Assembly (NCBI GenBank): GCA_047601445.1
Contig: JASGJH010000001.1
Span: 1,408,001-1,472,000, forward strand
Direction: 5' to 3'
Source: Myxococcales bacterium
GTDB lineage: Bacteria > Myxococcota_A > Polyangia > Polyangiales > DASUME01
DNA length: 64,000 bases
Shown here: positions 34,350 to 52,733 of the stretch, in pieces
Numbering within the stretch: position 1 is the first letter of the stretch
How the letters are laid out: each line of letters begins with the position of its first letter
The notes under the pieces: model-generated
Seen by the model: only the letters and a program-made list of their open reading frames with translations
Database searches by the model: none
Told to the model about the DNA's origin: nothing
Position numbers and translations under genes: made by a program

Positions 34350-34464
34350 GGGTGTGACCTCGCCTCTTGAAAAGCTTGTGTCCCGCTGCACCGCGAGCCC
34401 CCGCGCCGAATGACTCGGACGGGTGAATCGGGCGCTTCGCCTGGAGACGGCGAACACGCGGATG

Positions 34465-34578
34465 GCCCAGGCGAACGACACAAGACGGCTGCAGGGACGT
34501 CCTACAGTGGTCGCGCTTCCCGGTGGTAGCCCACCTCGGGCCCCCGGAGGAGAGCCCTTCATCGCCAGTCGCGCAACG
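34465..34578 (-). ncRNA. ZMP/ZTP riboswitch (pfl motif) upstream of glyA
   Basis: Minus strand GCGCGACTGGCGA...GGTGGGCTACCACCGGGAAGCGCG...GTCGTTCGCCTGGGC matches the pfl consensus (GACTGGCG / CGCCTGGGC pseudoknot); glyA is a typical target. Confidence 0.88.
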
Positions 34579-34669
34579 GGACCGAGTGTAGCCGAAGAGA
34601 CGGCGGGCGGCAGGTCGGACGGGCATGGAGAGACAGCCACCGAGCCGGAAACCGAGGCGGTCACGGTGC

Positions 34670-44869: not shown

Positions 44870-45007
44870 CGTCCGTTCCCTCTTGGCGCTCGACCTGAAT
44901 GGTGATCCGCGAACTGCACCCCACGAGCGTAGCCAGCGGGAGCCGCTTCGGCACTTGACCGCCCGGGTTCCTTCGCACATCTTCCGCCAGTCACCAGCTT
45001 GGTGACC

Positions 45008-45180
45008 GTACGTAGGGTGCCCTTTGGGGCTTAATAGGGAAGTCCGGTGCAACACCGGCGCGGTCCCGCCACTGTAAGCAGGAAGCTTTTCGTCAAGGTC
45101 ACTCGGGTCCCCCGGGGAAGGCGGCGAAAGCGCTGGGTGCGAGCCCTGTACCTGCGAGCCAGGAGACCTACCCCGTGCGT
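45008..45180 (+). ncRNA. Cobalamin (AdoCbl class I) riboswitch
   Basis: TAATAGGGAAGTCCGGTGCAACACCGGCGCGGTCCCGCCACTGTAA ... CACT..GGGAAGG ... GAGCCAGGAGACCT (B12 box). Confidence 0.93.
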
Positions 45181-45311
45181 GGCAACTCCGCGAGGAAACG
45201 GAGCGAGGCCTTGGGCAGTCACTGGCTCAGTGCTTTTTGATCGTACGGTACCCTTGGTGGGTGGGTCGATCGCTCCTCGTACCGCGCGGACATGGTCCGA
45301 GGAGACGATGC

Positions 45312-46520
45312 ATGAGGCACCCGAAACTTCCCCAGGTTGGTTTGTTGCGCGCGTTCGCGTTCAGTGGCCTGTTGGCCACCGGCTGCGCCGGAGACGGTGA
45401 TCACGAAAAGGCCGCCGGCGATGGCCGCAGCATGGCCGAAGTGCTGATGAATCGCGCCTATATCGTGAGCCTCGAGTCGGAGGAGCTCACGGTGATCGAC
45501 CTCGACGCGCTCGAGATCGTCGGACGCGTGCCCACCGGCGGCGTGGAGAACCACATGGGGGATCTCAACGCGGACTACACCAAGCTCTACATCGACTCGT
45601 CCCACAGCGACGAGACCGTGGTCGTGGACCTGGCGCGCCTCGAGGTGATCAAGCGCATCCCCACGGGCAAGCACCCGTCGCACCTCTCGCTGCACCAGCC
45701 TTCAGGGCTGTTCACCATCATGCTCGAGGGCGACAACGCCGTCTCGTTCCTGGATACGGCGACCGATGAGATCATCAAGACACTGCCGGGCTTCATGACC
45801 CCCCATTTCGCCCGTTATTCAGCCGACGGCAAGTGGGGCTACGTGGCCAATATCGGCGCCCATCACATCTCGCGCCTCGACATGGAGACACTCGAGGTAG
45901 TCGACCAGATCCCGCTCGATGGCTTTGCCGCCAACATGCCCACCGGCGGCGAGGGCGGCTTCGCGGACGTGCAAATCGACCGCGACGGCGTGCTGCACGC
46001 AGCGCACGCGGATACGGGGCGCGTGATGATGGTAGACGCGGCCAGCGGGCAAAAACTCGCCGAGACCACGGTGGGACGGGCGCCCTGGATCGTGTACGCC
46101 GAGCATCCCTTCGACAACGTGCCCATGACGCATCTGGTGCCCAATTTCGGCGACCAGACAGTGTCGATGATCGCCAAGAGCCGCAAGGTGGTGGGCACCG
46201 TGGCCGGCGACCAGGAGTCCTACGGGGTCAACTACTCGTCGCTGAATCCGAACATCGCCTACGTGATGAACCGTATGCGCGAGGACATCGCCGTGGTGGA
46301 CATCGAGCAGGGACAGCTGCTCGAGCGCATCGCGGTGGGCGGCAACACCGAGACCGCTTCGACCACGCCCGATGGGCGCTACATCGTGGCCGCGGTGAGC
46401 GGGGCCAACCGCGTCGTGGTGATCGACGCGCGCACGCGCAAGATCAAGAAGATCTTCGAGAACGTCGGCAAGTACCCGTGGAGCGTGACGATCCCGGGTG
46501 GACAGAACTACTGCCACTAA
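45312..46520 (+). CDS. YVTN/YncE-type 7-bladed beta-propeller lipoprotein
   Basis: Lipobox ATGC; repeats (V/I)ID...(E/K)V..RIP.G..P; His/Met-rich; ends GGQNYCH; GAGGAG RBS. Confidence 0.82.
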   Translation: MRHPKLPQVGLLRAFAFSGLLATGCAGDGDHEKAAGDGRSMAEVLMNRAYIVSLESEELTVIDLDALEIVGRVPTGGVENHMGDLNADYTKLYIDSSHSDETVVVDLARLEVIKRIPTGKHPSHLSLHQPSGLFTIMLEGDNAVSFLDTATDEIIKTLPGFMTPHFARYSADGKWGYVANIGAHHISRLDMETLEVVDQIPLDGFAANMPTGGEGGFADVQIDRDGVLHAAHADTGRVMMVDAASGQKLAETTVGRAPWIVYAEHPFDNVPMTHLVPNFGDQTVSMIAKSRKVVGTVAGDQESYGVNYSSLNPNIAYVMNRMREDIAVVDIEQGQLLERIAVGGNTETASTTPDGRYIVAAVSGANRVVVIDARTRKIKKIFENVGKYPWSVTIPGGQNYCH

Positions 46521-46552
46521 ACGCGCGCGTCATGGGGCTCGCGAGTCGAAAG

Positions 46553-49500
46553 ATGCGACGACTGGGCTGGGCTTGGCTCGGTTTGGTGGCCGCGCTTTGG
46601 TGCGGCTTCGCTCCGCGCACGGCGCGCGCGGAGACGTTGTTCGGCGTGGTGTCCGAGCGAACCGCACAGGTCGCGCTCAGCGCCGCGCAGCCGTTCCTTG
46701 GACGCCATCGGGTTCTATTGCGGACACCCGAGCAGGTAGCGAGCCTGAGTGACCGTGAGCTCGTCGCGCTCTGGCGAGAGGCCGACGCGCTGCTGTTCGC
46801 CAACGTGTTCGGAGAGCAGGCCACGCGCCTGACGCGCCTCTTGCGCGAAGGCGCCGTGAACCCGGCGATCCCCGTGCTGTGCCTGTCGGGAGACCCAGAG
46901 CTCAGCGCGGCATCGCGTCTCGGCGGACAGCGGGTGTTCGAGAACATGAGCACGGACGCGCAGCGCGCGCTGGCGGCGGCCCTTTCGTCGAGCGACCCCG
47001 AGGCCAAGCCCTGGCGGGTTCTGGCCGAGGAGAACCCGCGTCAGGCGGAGTGGATCGAGGGGGCCGCCTACTGGCGCGCGCGCTCGCCTGCCAACGTGAG
47101 CGCGTTGTTTGGGTGGCTATTGCGTCGCGCAGGGGCGGCCGAGACGGTCCCTGGGCCGCGCCCAGCCGAGCCGCTGCGTCTGCTGCAAGACGGCGAGCAA
47201 GCGCGCCTGACGTTGCCCCAGGCTGCGCCTGTGGTGGCGCTGCTCGACTACGACGAAGCCGAGGGCAGCGCCTCCCTGGCACTGCATCGCGCCCTCTGCC
47301 GAGCGATTCTCGCAGCAGGGCCTCGCTTGTGTGAGCGTGCTCGCGCGCTGGGGCCACGCGACGGCGCGCGCACTCGAAGAGCTCCCGCAGCGCCTGGCAC
47401 CGGGACGCTTAACGGGCCTGGTAGTGCTCCAGGACTTCGTGCTCGGAAGCGCAGAGGCGCGCGAACGCGCCAGTCGCGCGCTGGCCAGGCTGGACGTGCC
47501 TGTGTACAAGGCGCTCCGCCTGGTGGATCGCAGCGAGGCCCAGTGGCGGCTCTCCACCGATGGTCTGCCCTGGGACACCGTGCACTATCGCCTGGCCATG
47601 CCCGAGTTGCAGGGCGTGGGACAGCCCGTGGTGCTCGAGGCGGCGGAGCGCGTGCGCACCGATGCGGCCACCGGCCTCGCCTTTCGCCCTGCCCTGCCCC
47701 TCGAGCGCGAGATCGAGCACCTCGCACACAAGCTCGCGCGCAGCGAGCAGCTGGCGCGCAAGCCCAACGCAGCGAAGCGCGTGGCCATCATTTATTACAA
47801 CCACCCACCGGGACGCCACAACATCGGCGCCGACAACCTCGACGTCCCGGCCTCGCTGTGGGAGCTCCTGCGGGCGCTCAGGCGCGCTGGCTATGACGTG
47901 GACGACCTGCCCACGTCGGCCTCCGCGCTGCTCGAGCGCCTGCAACGCGATGGCGTGAATTTGCCCGAAGACCGCGGCGCACTCTCGGACATGGCCCCGC
48001 GCATCGCGCACGTCCCCGAGGCGACCTACGCACACTACTTCCAGAGTTTGCCGGCTTCCGCGCGACTCTCGGTGGAACAGGGTCCCCTCGCGCGGCTCGC
48101 CCACGACGTCGCGCTGGCCCAGCGCGCAGCGGAGCCGGCCAGTGCCCGCGAACGCGTGAGCTTCTGTCTCAAGGACATCCGCCACGTGCTCGAGGGCAGC
48201 GACCACCCGGCACGCCCGCGCGCGCTCGCGCTGTTGGCTCAGCTCACGGATCAGTACGACGCCTGGCTCGATGGCATGGAGACCGGCGTAGACACCCGCG
48301 GGAGCGAGCGCGAGGTGCAGGCGCTCACGCAGAGCCTGATCGCCACGCGCATCGAAGGCCTGACGGGTTGGGGCCCAGCGCCCGGGCGCGGCATGGTGCT
48401 CGACGGAAAGCTCCTCGTGCCGGGGATCACCTTCGGCAACGTGTTCATCGGCCCTCAACCACCGCGCGGCTGGGAGCTCGACGAGGAGCTGCTCCACGCC
48501 AACCTGAGCTTTGCTCCGCCCCATCAGTACCTCGCCTACTACCGCTGGCTACGTGAAGAGTTTCGCGCGGACGTGCTGATCCACGTGGGCCGCCATTCGA
48601 CCTACGAATGGCTGCCGGGACCGAGCGTGGGGCTCTCGCGCGAGGACTTTTCGTCCCTGGTGACCGAGGACTTGCCGAGTCTCTACCTGTACATCGTGGA
48701 CGGCGTGGGCGAAGGCCTCGCCGCCAAGCGGCGTGGCGGCGCCGTGATCATCGATCACCTGACGCCACCGCTGAGCACCACCCCGCTCTACGACGACCTG
48801 CTCGCGCTGCGACAGCTGGTGGAGAGTCATGAAGCCATGGGCTCCTCACCGGACACGCAGGCCGCCCGCGCGCGCGCCGTGCTCGCCATCAAAGAGAAGA
48901 TCCAGAAGCTGCACATGGAAGATGCCCTGCGCGCCAACATGGACAGCGAGCTCAAGCTGCGCGGCGTGAGCTTCAACGAGGTCAGCGACGAGCTCCTGGT
49001 GCACGAGGTCGGACACTATCTGACCGAGCTGCAAGAGCGCTTCATGCCCCACGGCTTGCACGTGTTCGGTCGTCCCTGGCAGCGCCCTGCCCTGCAAAAG
49101 ATGCTCGGATCCATCGAGGGCACGAGCGAAGCAGCACCGGCTCGATCCGCCTCGGCGGCGGCCCTCACGCGCTCGCCCGGGCTCGAGCTCAAGGCTTTGC
49201 TCGGCGCGCTCGCGGGACACTTCGTGGAGCCCGGTCACGGCAACGACCCCGTGCGACGCCCGGAGGTGCTGCCCACGGGCCGCAATTTCCACGCGCTCGA
49301 CGGCGGCCTATTGCCGAGCCAGGTGGCCTACGCGCTCGGCTCCGAGCTCGCCACGTCGGCGCGCGCGCAAAAGCCGGGCAGCGCCGAAGGCAGCGAGTCG
49401 GTGGTGCTTTGGGCCTCGGACACGGCGCGCGACGAAGGCGTGATGGTGGCCTTCGGACTCGACATGCTCGGCGTGCGACCGGTGTGGAACAGTCGGGGCA

Positions 49501-50876
49501 TCCTGCGCTCGCTCGAACGGCTGCCGCTCGCCGAGGGCCGGACGCGGCGCGACGTGAACTTCATCACCAGCGGCCTGTTTCGAGACCTGTACGAGAACCT
49601 GATCGTTTGGCTCGACCGCGCCGTGCTGCTGGCCCTCGATGGCGCGAGCTTGACGCTGCGCGCGGAGCATCCGGAGCTCGCACCGGCCCTGGACGCGGCC
49701 CTCGCGCCGCTCGGGGAACTGCGCGCTCCGGGGACGGAGAGCCTGCGCGAGAATCAGCTCGCGGCACACTGGGCCGAGCAAGCACGGGCGCTGAGCCTCA
49801 AGGGGATGCCGCTCGCAGCTGCCGGGCGTGAGGCCAGCGTGCGCCTCTTCGGCAACGCACCAGGCGGCTACGGGGCCGGCGTGAACAACCTGGTGGAGCG
49901 CTCCGGATCCTGGCAGGACCGTGCGCAGATTGGGAAGTCCTTCGCGCTTCGCATGGGTCACGGCTACGGCGCAGGACTGCGCGGGGCTCCAATGCAGGCT
50001 GGCTTCGAGCAGGCCCTGACGCGCACCGAGCACACCTACCTGGGGCGGGCCAGCCGCCTCTATGGCTTGCTCGATAACAACGACAGCTTCGACTACGTGG
50101 GCGGGCTGCGACTCGCCGTGGAGCAGCGCCGCGGCAAGCCGCCCGAGTCGAGCGTGGTGCAGTACGCCGACGCCCAGCATGCGCGCGTGGAGCCCCTCGA
50201 GCGCGCGTTGTTCAGCGAGCTACGCGGGCGCCACCTCAACCCGACCTATTTGCGCGCGTTGATCCGCCACGGCTACGCGGGCGCGCGCACGCTCAGCTTC
50301 GGCTTCGTGGAGAACCTCTGGGGCTGGCAGGTGACGAGCCCGGACCTGGTGAAGCCCTGGGTGTGGGACGAAGTGCATTCGGTCTACCTGAAGGACAGCC
50401 AGAAGCTCGGGCTCGCCGAGCTCTGGAAGTCCGCACCCAACGCCCACGTGAAGGCCAACATCGAGGCCGTGCTGCTGGTGGCTGCCCACAAGGGCTTCTG
50501 GTCGCCCGACGAGGCCGTACTGCGTGAGCTGGCCCAGGACTTTGCGCGCCTGGTGAGCGAAAACGGCCTGCCGGGCAGCGGCCACACGCGCCCCGATCAT
50601 CCGGTCATGGGTTTCGTGCGAGAGCGACTCGACGCCCAGGCCCGCGCGATGTTCGACCAGGTGTTGCAGCGGGCGCAGCAGCCCTCCTCGCGCGGACAGC
50701 CAGGTCCGAGCGCAGTGGCCGAGCTGCACCCGGATCCGCGCGAGCACGCCGAGGTCTCAGCGGACACCGAGTCGGGGCGCTCCATGTCCGGGCGCGCAGC
50801 GCAAGCCCTGGCTTACGGGCTGCTGACGGGTTGTGTGGGCCTGTTTTTGGCGGGTCTTTGGCGCGGAAGGACGTGA
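46553..50876 (+). CDS. Exported CobN/BchH/HmuS-like chelatase large subunit with signal peptide and C-terminal TM; +1 frameshift at ~47305
   Basis: Signal peptide MRRLGWAWLGLVAALWCGFAPRTARA; VAIIYYNHPPG, GNVFIGPQPPRG, PPHQYLAYY, IHVGRHSTYEWLPG, GEGLAAKRRG, IDHLTPP, PHGLHVFG, LPTGRNF; removing one T in GCGATTCTC gives ~1440 aa. Confidence 0.87.
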
Positions 50877-51323
50877 GTGATGGGCGATAGCTTGGGCATG
50901 TTGTTGCGCAGCATGGTGCGCGGGCTGGAGGCGCCGGCCTTGAGCTGCTTGCTGGTGGTATGCGCCTGGGCGCTGTGGGAGGCGGGCCTCGGCCTGGGCG
51001 AGCGTCTGTCGGGGCTGCGTAAGCTGCGCGAGGGCAACGACCTCGAGCGCGTGCGCGACATGGGCCGCGTGCGCATCGAGCGGGCAGACATGTTGGCGCG
51101 CGTGGGTCCCATGCTCGGCCTGGTGGGCACGCTGATCCCCCTCGGGCCCGGGCTGGCCGCGCTCGGGCGCGGGGAGCTGAGCGAGCTCGCGCGCGCGGTG
51201 ACGGTGGCCTTCGACACGACGGTGCTGGGCTTGCTCGTGGGCATGTCGGGGTTCGTGCTCGGACGCCTGCGGCGCCGTTGGTACGACCGACTGCTCGACG
51301 GACTGGAGGCACAGCATGCGTGA
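50877..51323 (+). CDS. MotA/TolQ/ExbB proton-channel family protein (HmuU-like)
   Basis: VGPMLGLVGTLIPLGPGL, VAFDTTVLGL. Confidence 0.85.
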   Translation: MMGDSLGMLLRSMVRGLEAPALSCLLVVCAWALWEAGLGLGERLSGLRKLREGNDLERVRDMGRVRIERADMLARVGPMLGLVGTLIPLGPGLAALGRGELSELARAVTVAFDTTVLGLLVGMSGFVLGRLRRRWYDRLLDGLEAQHA

Positions 51324-51618
51324 CCGCCGCCGCTTTCAGAGCCGCTTCGACGACTCCGATGCCGACCCGCTCACCGGTATGGCCAACCTGGCCGACGTGA
51401 TGCTGGTGTTCGCCTGCGGCCTGATCACTGCGCTCGTGATGGGCGACCTGCGCGCGAGCCCGGCGCGTGAAGGCGGCGGAGCACGCGTGCCTGTGGAACA
51501 GGGCCGTGAGGTGCCCGACCTGCCCCAGGGCGAAGGCGGTCAGGTGGCTGGCTACGAGTCGGTGGGGACGGTCTACCGCGACTCCAAGACGGGAAAACTC
51601 GTGATGGTGAAAAAGTGA
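51316..51618 (+). CDS. DUF2149 family protein (HmuV-like)
   Basis: DPLTGMANLADVMLVFACGL TM with Asp; GTVYRDSKTGKLVMV. Confidence 0.85.
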   Translation: MRDRRRFQSRFDDSDADPLTGMANLADVMLVFACGLITALVMGDLRASPAREGGGARVPVEQGREVPDLPQGEGGQVAGYESVGTVYRDSKTGKLVMVKK

Positions 51619-51625
51619 GGACAGC

Positions 51626-52165
51626 ATGAAGGAAGAGCAAACAAGCGCGCGCTGGATGTTGGCTTCGTTGGTGGCGCTGCTGCTGGTCACGCGCCTCGCG
51701 CGAGAGGTCCTCGGGGTGCACTTGCCGGATGCCGCCGTGCCTACCTTCTTCTTGGCGGGATGCCTGGGGCTGGGCTCTCGCTCGCTGGCCGTTCTGCTGT
51801 TGGCCGCCGTGGGGGTCGACCTGGTGCAGTTCGCACTCGGCGCCAGCACGGCGTGCGTCTCGCCGGGCTATCCGCTCCTGTTCGTGGCCTACGCCGTGAG
51901 CTGGGGCACGGGCGCGCTCTGTCAGTCCGCCAAGCTCAGCTGGAAAGCCGCTGCTGTGCTGCTCACCGGAGTGGTGGCCTTCGCGCTGACCAGCGGCGGC
52001 TACTACTACCTCTCGGGGAAGTTCCCGCAGCCCGCGTTCGCCGAGTTCGTGGTGCGCAGTCAGCGCTATCTGCCCGACTACATGATCAATGTGCTGCTCT
52101 ACGCAGGCCCTGGCCTGCTGCTGGTCGAGGCCCTGCAGCGGACCGCGGGGCGCGAACGGGCTTGA
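51626..52165 (+). CDS. btuM: BtuM-like cobalamin transporter (solitary ECF S-component fold)
   Basis: About 6 TM; LVTR..HLPDA..FFLAG, VD, CVSPGY (Co-ligating Cys motif as recalled for BtuM), TSGGYYYLSGKF; under a B12 riboswitch. Confidence 0.75.
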   Translation: MKEEQTSARWMLASLVALLLVTRLAREVLGVHLPDAAVPTFFLAGCLGLGSRSLAVLLLAAVGVDLVQFALGASTACVSPGYPLLFVAYAVSWGTGALCQSAKLSWKAAAVLLTGVVAFALTSGGYYYLSGKFPQPAFAEFVVRSQRYLPDYMINVLLYAGPGLLLVEALQRTAGRERA

Positions 52166-52274: not shown

Positions 52275-52733
52275 ATGGTGACGCAGCAATGGGCCCGAGC
52301 AGGCCGCGGGGTACTTGTGGGGGCGCTGCTCGCCCTGGGCTGCGCCATGAATGCCGCGAGCGCACACGCCGACGGCCTGATCTGCTCGGCACTCGCGGCC
52401 AGCAGCGCGGGCGCCTCGGAGCCGCCCGCCACCGCCACCGGCTTCGCCTTCGTGCGCAGCTACAACCTCTACCGCACCCAGGCCCGCCCGTGGGCGCAGA
52501 TCCCCACAGGGGCAGCCCTGGTGCTGCGCGCCCCCGAGCACACCACCGAGAGCGACCTCCACAACGCGCTACGCGGCTGCGCCAAGCAAGCCAACGCAAC
52601 CTCGCCGCTGTGCGTGAAGGGCTCGAGCTTCCGCGTGCGCGCCGACGGCGAGCTCTACGTGGTGGAGATCACCGGCAAGGATCGCGCGAGCGCCCTGGAA
52701 ATTCAGCACCGCGCTGCCAACCTGCGGCGCTGA
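52275..52733 (+). CDS. Small secreted hypothetical protein
   Basis: Signal peptide (..AASAHA|D), several Cys, GGAGG upstream. Confidence 0.6.
   Translation: MVTQQWARAGRGVLVGALLALGCAMNAASAHADGLICSALAASSAGASEPPATATGFAFVRSYNLYRTQARPWAQIPTGAALVLRAPEHTTESDLHNALRGCAKQANATSPLCVKGSSFRVRADGELYVVEITGKDRASALEIQHRAANLRR

What the first reader, a model, noticed from the sequence alone, without database searches (positions are those of the whole stretch)
45008..52165. B12-riboswitch operon: beta-propeller lipoprotein + exported CobN/HmuS-like chelatase + MotA/ExbB + DUF2149 + BtuM; candidate envelope corrinoid/cobalt salvage machine
Seen: a canonical cobalamin riboswitch followed by five tightly spaced co-directional genes. 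The CobN-like protein has a signal peptide and a C-terminal TM. No CobS/CobT or ChlI/D ATPase partner and no other cob genes lie in the window. Known: cytoplasmic CobN needs AAA+ partners; a CobN-like + MotA-like + DUF2149 set resembles the Bacteroidota hmuSUV heme-utilisation genes, where HmuS is reported to remove iron from heme; BtuM imports cobalamin through a Cys ligand. Inference: this is a periplasmic system with no ATPase partner, possibly pmf-coupled. It may insert or remove metal from tetrapyrroles (e.g. prey-derived corrinoids), hand products to BtuM and be repressed by B12. I am not aware of this combination being characterised in myxobacteria.
Basis: partly seen in the sequence, partly recalled or inferred. 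Interest (0 to 1): 0.85.

Follow-up and report, generated by a model that had tools for sequence, protein, structure and literature searches.

The report
B12-switched exported chelatase salvage operon
A vitamin-B12-sensing RNA switch heads five genes, among them a predicted exported relative of the cobalt-inserting enzyme CobN with a small predicted ion-motor pair; this gene family (BtuS) was named in 2003 but its B12-linked branch is untested, and it most likely puts cobalt into scavenged metal-free B12 rings outside the cytoplasm.

Summary
Confirmed: cobalamin riboswitch (44998-45189), beta-propeller lipoprotein, CobN-like gene with signal peptide and C-terminal anchor, MotA-like, DUF2149, BtuM. 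The CobN-like gene carries one extra base near 47304-47310; relatives are intact, so this is probably an assembly error. It belongs to the BtuS family (named 2003); this scan noted such modules in at least eight other windows. The chelatase-MotA-DUF2149 trio sits together in 32 of 35 relatives, behind a B12 riboswitch in 24 of 24 with enough upstream DNA. New here is evidence on direction. 27 of 35 carriers lack the corrin-ring marker CbiC/CobH, so cobalt scavenging would not serve them. 0 of 35 have cytoplasmic CobN. Carriers often keep CobB. The protein lacks HmuS's haem ligands and second His, and has CobN-like active-site residues. Published chemistry says cobalt resists removal from intact corrins. 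Best reading (about 45%): periplasmic cobalt insertion into salvaged metal-free corrins, energised by an ion motor instead of ATP. Rivals: cobalt extraction (25%), non-catalytic corrinoid handling (20%). Against: this genome makes B12 de novo, and sister clades extract metals. BtuM and the propeller are local additions.

The parts
44998..45189 (+). Cobalamin riboswitch aptamer (RF00174)
   Evidence: 101.9 bits, E 2.4e-24, whole model matched; one of three in the genome
45220..45240 (+). Short hairpin with U-run: possible attenuator in the expression platform
   Evidence: such sites are no more frequent here than in shuffles (2 found, 3.7 expected), so only its position is suggestive
45273..45304 (+). 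Hairpin in which CTCCTCG pairs with CGAGGAG, which holds the ribosome-binding site of the first gene: likely translational off-switch
   Evidence: read; present in the predicted fold of 45150-45330 (the stretch as a whole folds no better than shuffles, z -0.8)
45312..46520 (+). YncE/YVTN-type beta-propeller lipoprotein, 402 aa; a B12-regulon member, likely a surface or periplasmic corrinoid or cobalt binder
   Evidence: Pfam YNCE 59 bits, DUF5074 35 bits; homologues behind a cobalamin riboswitch in 6 of 7 related genomes, the 7th cut by a contig end; no BtuG structure among sequence hits
46553..46630 (+). Predicted Sec signal peptide of the chelatase (alternative start 46532)
   Evidence: basic-hydrophobic-AxA pattern; the same pattern in relatives
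46553..50876 (+). BtuS-family CobN-like protein, about 1440 aa when read through; split by one extra base near 47304-47310
   Evidence: PF02514; N-part 49% and C-part 70% identical to one intact ORF of the nearest relative L007; junction reading
48582..48599 (+). Active-site motif HVGRHS; the second His matches HmuS His538; Arg stands where CobN has Lys and HmuS/ChlH have Thr
   Evidence: GxRH invariant in alignment A3
50067..50105 (+). Second active-site motif LLDNNDSFDYVGG; Asp in place of HmuS His1209, as in CobN
50805..50861 (+). Predicted C-terminal membrane anchor after a polar linker
   Evidence: sequence; present in 30 of 30 long relatives
50880..51323 (+). Small MotA/TolQ/ExbB-family protein, 147 aa (HmuU-like)
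   Evidence: PF01618 33 bits; profile hits MotA 6ysl at E 0.003; 35 invariant columns in 33 sequences
51316..51618 (+). DUF2149 protein, 100 aa (HmuV-like): one helix with invariant Asn24 and Asp27; likely the ExbD/MotB-type partner
   Evidence: PF09919; alignment A1; Asp27 lines up with the ExbD membrane Asp only weakly (probability 3%)
51626..52165 (+). BtuM corrinoid transporter with the cobalt-ligand Cys
   Evidence: PDB 8c7p, E 6e-14, CVSP motif aligned; Cys80 role from PMC6072759 passages

Best explanation
The operon lies behind a cobalamin riboswitch and encodes a CobN-fold protein predicted to be anchored on the periplasmic side of the inner membrane, which likely inserts cobalt into scavenged metal-free corrin rings, likely driven by the MotA-like/DUF2149 pair in place of an ATPase, after which BtuM would import the product. 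Shown: the gene content, the riboswitch, the fold and motifs, the lack of an ATPase partner, and the distribution of the module. Inferred steps: (1) when B12 is low the switch opens; (2) a BtuB-type receptor (encoded elsewhere here, behind another B12 switch) brings corrins into the periplasm, perhaps helped by the propeller lipoprotein; (3) cobalt-free corrins (hydrogenobyrinic acid, its amides, hydrogenobinamide) bind the BtuS cavity, where the conserved His helps to place Co(II); (4) ion flow through the small membrane pair supplies the distortion that the CobST ATPase supplies in the cytoplasm; (5) BtuM, which binds through a Cys-cobalt bond, or BtuCDF passes only the metalated product inward to CobB/CobO/CobQ and the later enzymes. 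In this genome the route would be a short cut beside de novo synthesis, and it works only if the extra base is an assembly error (I put that at about 70-75%).
For: B12 link: riboswitch upstream in 24 of 24 related loci with at least 4.5 kb upstream, 27 of 35 overall. In 299 sampled Gammaproteobacteria all 10 carriers have cobalamin synthase CobS, against 78 of 289 others; the module occurs in 7 of 50 salvagers, 3 of 40 producers and 0 of 209 genomes with neither marker. Most carriers cannot build the ring: CbiC/CobH in only 8 of 35, so cobalt supply for de novo synthesis cannot be the general purpose. True CobB, the enzyme acting next to the chelation step, is in 16 of those 27 (after setting aside 2 long DsrN-type hits) and in 5 of 7 carrier salvagers against 10 of 43 others (p 0.02; 0.06 without one divergent carrier). 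Cytoplasmic CobN is in 0 of 35 carriers, i.e. 0 of 10 carrier producers against 14 of 37 other producers (p 0.02, kin not independent). In the window's genus 2 of 10 genomes have the module and 3 others have cytoplasmic CobN. A Marinobacter plasmid has the order btuB-btuFCD-cobB-btuS-cobO-cobQ-bluB. Active site: GRH..E(W/F)LP..DHLTPP and Asp at the HmuS His1209 position resemble CobN. HmuS His254 aligns to Asp and Met79 to a non-Met residue, and the Met-rich insertion has no counterpart. The model of the intact relative matches CobN 7c6o at Z 36.7 (rmsd 5.1, 867 aligned), ChlH at 30-32 and HmuS at 31 (rmsd 3.3-4.1). The tree puts the clade apart from HmuS-motif proteins. Chemistry: cobalt corrins resist cobalt removal without destruction of the ring, purple sulfur bacteria make cobalt-free corrinoids, and engineered E. 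coli excretes one (PMC6771967 passages); insertion into corrins needs energy (PMC7689651 passages).
Against: No biochemistry exists for this branch in the papers I found. This genome and its nearest relative make corrins de novo, so they do not need a salvage chelatase. Sister clades of the same architecture point to metal extraction: HmuS removes iron (PMC12583661), PA1922-25 is zinc-starvation induced (PMC4542158), and one copy lies among hydrogenase maturation genes. CobB-type salvage operons exist without the module (10 of 15 salvagers with CobB lack it; three such operons seen), and 11 of 27 non-producing carriers show no true CobB. The motifs are not strict markers: many other exported groups also have the Asp, and several CobN-clade proteins have Thr, not Lys. 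By whole-profile score HmuS is the closest solved protein (521 bits against 477 for CobN), and domains V-VI score best to HmuS. Two relatives lack the motor pair (L038; Marinobacter). No periplasmic cobalt chaperone is evident. How much metal-free corrin exists in nature is unknown to me. Many of the 35 genomes are incomplete MAGs.
Confidence: 0.45

Rival explanations
1. Cobalt-extraction machine: like HmuS for iron, the protein strips cobalt from an imported chelate (a cobalt porphyrin, a precorrin or an unusable corrinoid) in the periplasm and feeds the cell's own B12 synthesis.
For: HmuS is a proven dechelatase with the same topology and partners. Other clades sit in zinc or nickel contexts. 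This genome is a de novo producer without CbiM or NicO. In one relative the propeller gene is followed by a HupE/UreJ metal permease. A G. lovleyi copy from another branch lies behind B12 switches in a de novo producer.
Against: 27 of 35 carriers lack CbiC/CobH. No carrier has cytoplasmic CobN, although aerobic producers need cobalt as well. The annotated neighbours are corrinoid transporters (BtuB-like receptor in 20 of 35 loci). HmuS His1209 and the haem ligands are absent. Cobalt corrins resist demetalation. This genome has a HupE/UreJ-2 protein that might import cobalt.
Confidence: 0.25
2. Non-catalytic corrinoid trap or unloader: the cavity binds corrinoids and the motor pair releases them (from lipoproteins or from BtuB) to the inner-membrane transporter, without changing the metal.
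For: It fits producers and salvagers alike, and the link to BtuB, BtuFCD and BtuM. B. fragilis btuS1 btuS2 mutants kept their dechelatase activity (PMC6460266).
Against: The catalytic His motif and many cavity residues are invariant. It does not explain why cytoplasmic CobN and the module exclude each other, or the link to CobB. A 150-kDa protein is costly where BtuF already does the job.
Confidence: 0.2
3. This copy is a recent pseudogene: the extra base is real, and only the propeller and BtuM genes matter in this genome. This concerns the copy, not the family's function.
For: One-base frameshift. The background rate is low: 1 of 65 genes compared with the nearest relative was split (75 kb), so an error in a given 4.3-kb gene is a roughly 6% event. 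The genome does not depend on salvage.
Against: No other lesion in 4.3 kb, motifs intact, downstream genes intact. A single-contig 9.5-Mb genome. Two other large-contig assemblies show breaks in homologues (L037; G064). The B. thetaiotaomicron hmuS gene was also falsely frameshifted at first.
Confidence: 0.27

Closest known systems
BtuS family of CobN-like proteins (Rodionov et al. 2003, seen only as cited in PMC6460266)
   Same: PF02514 protein distinct from CobN and ChlH, exported and membrane-anchored, predicted to salvage metalloporphyrins.
   Different: Only iron/haem members have been tested; this branch is B12-riboswitch-led, sits among late cob genes and has a GRHS/DNND active site.
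HmuS-HmuU-HmuV of the Bacteroidota hmuYRSTUV operon (PDB 9d26/9p4s; PMC12583661, PMC13227078)
   Same: Chelatase fold (Z 31), His538 kept, periplasmic membrane anchor, ExbB-like and DUF2149-type partners, no AAA+ ATPase, an outer lipoprotein and a receptor nearby.
   Different: His1209, the Met79/His254 haem site and the Met-rich insertion are missing; separate clade; B12 instead of iron control; BtuM instead of HmuT.
CobNST cobaltochelatase (PDB 7c6o, 9uk9)
   Same: Best structural match (Z 36.7); basic residue before the catalytic His, DHLxPP, and Asp at the second site.
   Different: CobN is cytoplasmic and needs CobST or ChlID and CobW; this protein scores below the CobN cut-off (467 bits for the C-part, cut-off 822), has a signal peptide and anchor, and the genome has no CobT.
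P. aeruginosa PA1922-PA1925 (PMC4542158) and the G. lovleyi pSZ77 cobN cluster (PMC3403914)
   Same: TonB receptor, CobN-like gene and ExbB/D-type genes; for G. lovleyi the authors found no CobS/T and called the function unknown, suggesting transport of B12 or corrinoid precursors.
   Different: The PA cluster is Zur/zinc-controlled; the G. lovleyi protein lies on another branch and has DUF2162 beside it.
BtuM of Thiobacillus denitrificans (PMC6072759; PDB 8c7p)
   Same: Sequence match over 153 residues, cobalt-ligand Cys kept.
   Different: Usually beside btuB; here at the end of the chelatase operon.

Membership tests
Cobalamin riboswitch RF00174 | Covariance-model score above 31.5 bits | tested here: met
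   101.9 bits
Class I chelatase large subunit (PF02514) | Pfam match and multi-domain fold with the HxGxH motif | tested here: met
   model of the intact relative L007, residues 1-1190, Z 36.7 to 7c6o
BtuS family | CobN-like, neither CobN nor ChlH, exported and anchored, with MotA-like and DUF2149 partners (definition taken from PMC6460266 and PMC13227078; the 2003 paper was not held) | tested here: met
Cytoplasmic CobN of CobNST | TIGR02257 score above 822 bits, no signal peptide or anchor | tested here: not met
   467 bits for the C-part; intact L007 not listed at E 1e-150; outside the CobN clade
Cytoplasmic CobN of CobNST | CobS/CobT or ChlI/D partner in the genome | tested here: not met
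   CobT and TIGR02442 searched; CobS of the chelatase was not searched separately
HmuS haem dechelatase | His538 in HFG(T/A)HG | tested here: met
   His kept, context HVGRHS
HmuS haem dechelatase | LSLDHxxEFMGG with His1209 | tested here: not met
   LDNNDSFDYVGG
HmuS haem dechelatase | Met79/His254 haem site and Met-rich insertion | tested here: not met
   His254 aligns to Asp in the window; Met79 to Phe in six relatives (gappy alignment, window N-part not in it); insertion absent
HmuS haem dechelatase | NADH-dependent iron release from haem | not testable with these tools
   needs biochemistry
Magnesium chelatase ChlH/BchH | TIGR02025 above 829 bits; BchH clade | tested here: not met
   529 bits for the C-part, 551 for intact L007; tree
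MotAB/ExbBD/TolQR ion motors | PF01618 subunit | tested here: met
MotAB/ExbBD/TolQR ion motors | Single-helix partner with the conserved membrane Asp, assembled 5:2 | tested here: inconclusive
   Asp27 invariant in 33 sequences, helix 23-46 predicted, weak alignment to ExbD; the role of that Asp and the 5:2 ratio are recalled
BtuM | Homology to BtuM with the Cys80 ligand | tested here: met
BtuG-type B12-binding propeller lipoprotein | Homology to BtuG and B12 binding | tested here: inconclusive
   DUF5074 over cut-off (its link to BtuG is recalled); no BtuG entry among 12 PDB sequence hits; not folded

The most novel reading that the evidence does not exclude
A periplasmic cobaltochelatase in which a miniature ion-driven membrane motor replaces the AAA+ ATPase ring, letting bacteria that cannot build a corrin ring complete vitamin B12 from cobalt-free corrins released by cobalt-starved neighbours: an unrecognised entry point into B12 cross-feeding, and a class I chelatase powered by the ion gradient.
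Probability: 0.3. Interest if true: 0.85.

Novelty: new member of a known kind. Interest (0 to 1): 0.5.

Why it matters
The locus itself is one more, frameshifted copy of a widespread module that has been named but not explained. What matters is the open question it stands for. The HmuS paper says that most members of this superfamily cannot be annotated. If the B12 branch inserts cobalt, many marine, soda-lake and nitrifying bacteria now scored as cobinamide salvagers or broken producers would use a further precursor pool, genes labelled 'cobN' in them would be mislabelled, and a chelatase run by the ion gradient would be a new energy coupling. Metal-free corrins can now be made in milligram amounts (PMC6771967), and cultured carriers with intact genes exist, so the test is direct.

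Tried and rejected
Sequencing runs for the locus: none was listed, so the frameshift and expression were not checked on reads. Complex prediction of four MotA-like and two DUF2149 chains: no verdict. DUF2149 model (pLDDT 64): no PDB fold match, no PDB sequence match, no ExbD or MotB Pfam hit. First CobB count: over all NF002204 hits the association with the module was not significant (5 of 7 against 91 of 252, p 0.11). Most hits were a longer type; two of these lay in dsr-type operons (the label DsrN is recalled), so I split the hits by match length after seeing the data, and 5 matches were not listed. Module against CbiC: no association (3 of 10 against 37 of 289, p 0.14). The idea that Arg/Lys and Asp are strict corrin markers was weakened. 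Programmed frameshifting was rejected because relatives are continuous. A cytoplasmic biosynthetic CobN was rejected (topology, score, no partner). The 2003 paper was not held. A whole-genome tblastn for the frameshift rate timed out and was redone on fewer genes. No sigma-70-type promoter was found. Literature searches with the terms listed no test of a B12-linked BtuS; subscription journals are mostly outside the library and no supplements were read.
Full report
Observation. The stretch holds a full-length cobalamin riboswitch at 44998-45189 and five tightly spaced genes on the same strand. Pfam gives a YncE-type beta-propeller with a lipobox, a CobN/Mg-chelatase protein, a MotA/ExbB protein and DUF2149. 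The last gene has no Pfam hit but matches solved BtuM with its cobalt-ligand cysteine. Downstream of the aptamer lie a U-tailed hairpin and a hairpin that pairs with the first ribosome-binding site; neither is statistically unusual by itself. The chelatase gene changes frame once: GC3 bias moves frame near 47280-47340, and the junction reads through with one base skipped near 47304-47310. Both parts align to single ORFs in relatives. One of 65 genes compared with the nearest relative was split in this assembly, so an error is plausible but not certain; I put it at 70-75%.

The genome. It is one contig of 9.5 Mb, 98.7% complete; its nearest relative in the search is a Polyangiales MAG. It has one PF02514 gene, no CobT and no ChlI/D-type partner over cut-off. 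Its two other cobalamin riboswitches head a de novo operon and a TonB-dependent receptor. In the de novo operon CbiC is confirmed by Pfam, CbiD and CobB by blastp to annotated relatives, and the CbiX, CbiL, CbiG, CbiH and CbiF labels are my reading of the translations. CobO, CobQ, CbiB, CobU and CobT/BluB homologues are present. CbiM and NicO were not found; a HupE/UreJ-2 protein was. The protein in the window is therefore not the biosynthetic chelatase.

Relatives. A scan of 185,579 species genomes gave 35 loci at 49-70% identity, mostly Gammaproteobacteria (Ectothiorhodospiraceae, Arenicellales, Nitrosomonas, Marinobacterium, Pseudomonas), one Nitrospirales and two Polyangia; this scan finds close relatives only. 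MotA-like and DUF2149 genes lie beside the chelatase in 32 of 35. Two loci end at a contig edge and have the MotA-like gene elsewhere in the assembly, and one genome lacks it. A cobalamin riboswitch was found in 27 of 35 loci, upstream in 24 of 24 with at least 4.5 kb of upstream DNA, and within 800 nt of the chelatase in 15. Neighbours, named on 33 representative ORFs and mapped by blastp, are a BtuB-like receptor (20 of 35), CobO (18), CobB (10), BtuFCD, BluB, CbiB, CobD and CobQ. BtuM is adjacent in 2 and the propeller in none. The propeller family is itself B12-linked: 6 of 7 homologues in related genomes follow a cobalamin riboswitch, and one genome of another family has riboswitch-propeller-chelatase-MotA-DUF2149. 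In a phylum sample 7 of 151 genomes had DUF2149; the six others, and one divergent gammaproteobacterial copy, showed no riboswitch in 13-20 kb; the five intact ones have Ser or Thr in the His motif.

What kind of protein. All 30 long relatives end in a polar linker and a hydrophobic helix, and 19 of 20 scored N-termini look like signal peptides (hydropathy only). A model of residues 1-1190 of the intact relative (pLDDT 85) matches CobN, ChlH and HmuS. Trees of 148 and 36 sequences place the window protein in its own supported clade, apart from cytoplasmic CobN/BchH and from proteins with the HmuS motif. The 36 were a hand-picked subset. A test rejects joining the clade with the HmuS-motif group (p 5e-5), but the groups were named after seeing the tree, and HmuS itself was represented by a homologue. 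The catalytic His is kept; HmuS's second His, its haem ligands and its Met-rich insertion are not. The residues around the His are CobN-like, but not exclusively so, and HmuS remains the best whole-profile hit.

Direction of the reaction. Only 8 of the 35 carrier genomes have CbiC/CobH. In a sample of 301 Gammaproteobacteria (centre genome and one unscored genome left out, n = 299; three carriers overlap with the 35) the module was in 10, all with cobalamin synthase: 7 of 50 salvagers, 3 of 40 producers, 0 of 209 others. One genome in these tallies (G219, a non-carrier) is unpublished. True CobB was in 5 of 7 carrier salvagers and 10 of 43 others; this rests on a split of hits by length made after seeing the data, and without the split the link is not significant. 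No carrier has cytoplasmic CobN (0 of 35), while 14 of 37 non-carrier producers do. In the window's genus the two were never in the same assembly (2 with the module, 3 with CobN, 5 with neither found). These counts include kin and incomplete MAGs, so the p values overstate. Read together with the statement that cobalt resists removal from corrins and that purple sulfur bacteria make cobalt-free corrinoids (PMC6771967), they favour insertion into salvaged rings over extraction. Against this stand the de novo capacity of this genome, the extraction role of HmuS and the zinc and nickel contexts of other clades, CobB operons without the module, and two carriers without the motor pair (the Marinobacter copy also lacks the C-terminal anchor, which one deletion would explain).

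The motor. The 147-aa protein is a PF01618 member with a strongly conserved core. DUF2149 has one predicted helix with invariant Asn24 and Asp27 and only a weak alignment to ExbD. Class I chelatases need a mechanical input from an AAA+ ring (PMC7689651; bioRxiv 10.64898/2026.10.09.757910), and ATP is not expected in the periplasm (established knowledge), so an ion-driven substitute is a reasonable inference and no more. Purified HmuS works with NADH and without such partners, and its authors assign HmuU and HmuV to outer-membrane import.

What is known. The family is BtuS, predicted in 2003 to salvage metalloporphyrins (seen through PMC6460266). What I saw of each paper: PMC12583661 abstract, introduction, discussion and the 'HmuS body' section; passages of PMC6460266, PMC8123684, PMC10846266, PMC4542158, PMC7689651, PMC6771967, PMC13227078, PMC6072759, PMC3403914 and the bioRxiv preprint; other titles only as search listings; Rodionov 2003 not at all; no supplements. 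The searches listed no experimental study of a B12-linked BtuS. This scan has reported such modules in at least eight windows of other genomes; those notes agree on anatomy, and one favours cobalt scavenging, which my counts argue against for this clade.

Verdict. Real, correctly described, and a new member of a named but untested kind. The copy here may be broken. The value lies in a testable direction for the family: insertion 0.45, extraction 0.25, non-catalytic handling 0.20, other 0.10. Interest 0.5.

Noticed in passing
window 34458-34582 (-): ZMP/ZTP riboswitch (RF01750, 43.1 bits); the gene it controls was not examined.
   Followed up: no
window 52275-52733 (+): 152-aa ORF with a signal-peptide-like start, 109 nt after BtuM; no Pfam or NCBIfam hit and no homologue in the 35 related loci.
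   Followed up: partly
L073 2336-15283 (Marinobacter sp. M3C plasmid): Riboswitch-btuB-btuFCD-cobB-btuS-cobO-cobQ-bluB; the BtuS keeps its signal peptide but lacks the C-terminal anchor, and the MotA/DUF2149 pair is absent: a natural test of whether the motor is needed.
   Followed up: partly
L076 510-11227 (Runella plasmid): TonB receptor, urease accessory protein, MotA, DUF2149 and a CobN-like gene inside hypF/hypCDE: another clade that may supply nickel to hydrogenase.
   Followed up: no
L025 12069-12740 and L040 9810-10481: A CbiE-like methyltransferase gene lies between motA and DUF2149 in two carriers in which CbiC was not found.
   Followed up: no
L101-L107 (same genus and order): A Polyangia beta-propeller lipoprotein family (627 hits at E 1e-30) sits behind cobalamin riboswitches in 6 of 7 genomes, once before a HupE/UreJ permease: a candidate B12- or cobalt-binding protein.
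   Followed up: partly
L056, L057 and the class sample: Most NF002204 'CobB' hits in Gammaproteobacteria are a longer type; the two checked lie in dsr-type operons, so CobB counts from that model overstate B12 capacity.
   Followed up: partly
L042 18177-18557 and 17436-18173 (G000): DUF3209 and an FAD-binding oxidoreductase lie between the CbiX-like gene and cbiD in the riboswitch-led de novo operon.
   Followed up: no
L114-L116 (G484, G487, G488): Three genomes of the same genus carry a cytoplasmic CobN, two of them next to cobO, while this genome has a CbiX-type route: both B12 routes appear within one genus.
   Followed up: partly
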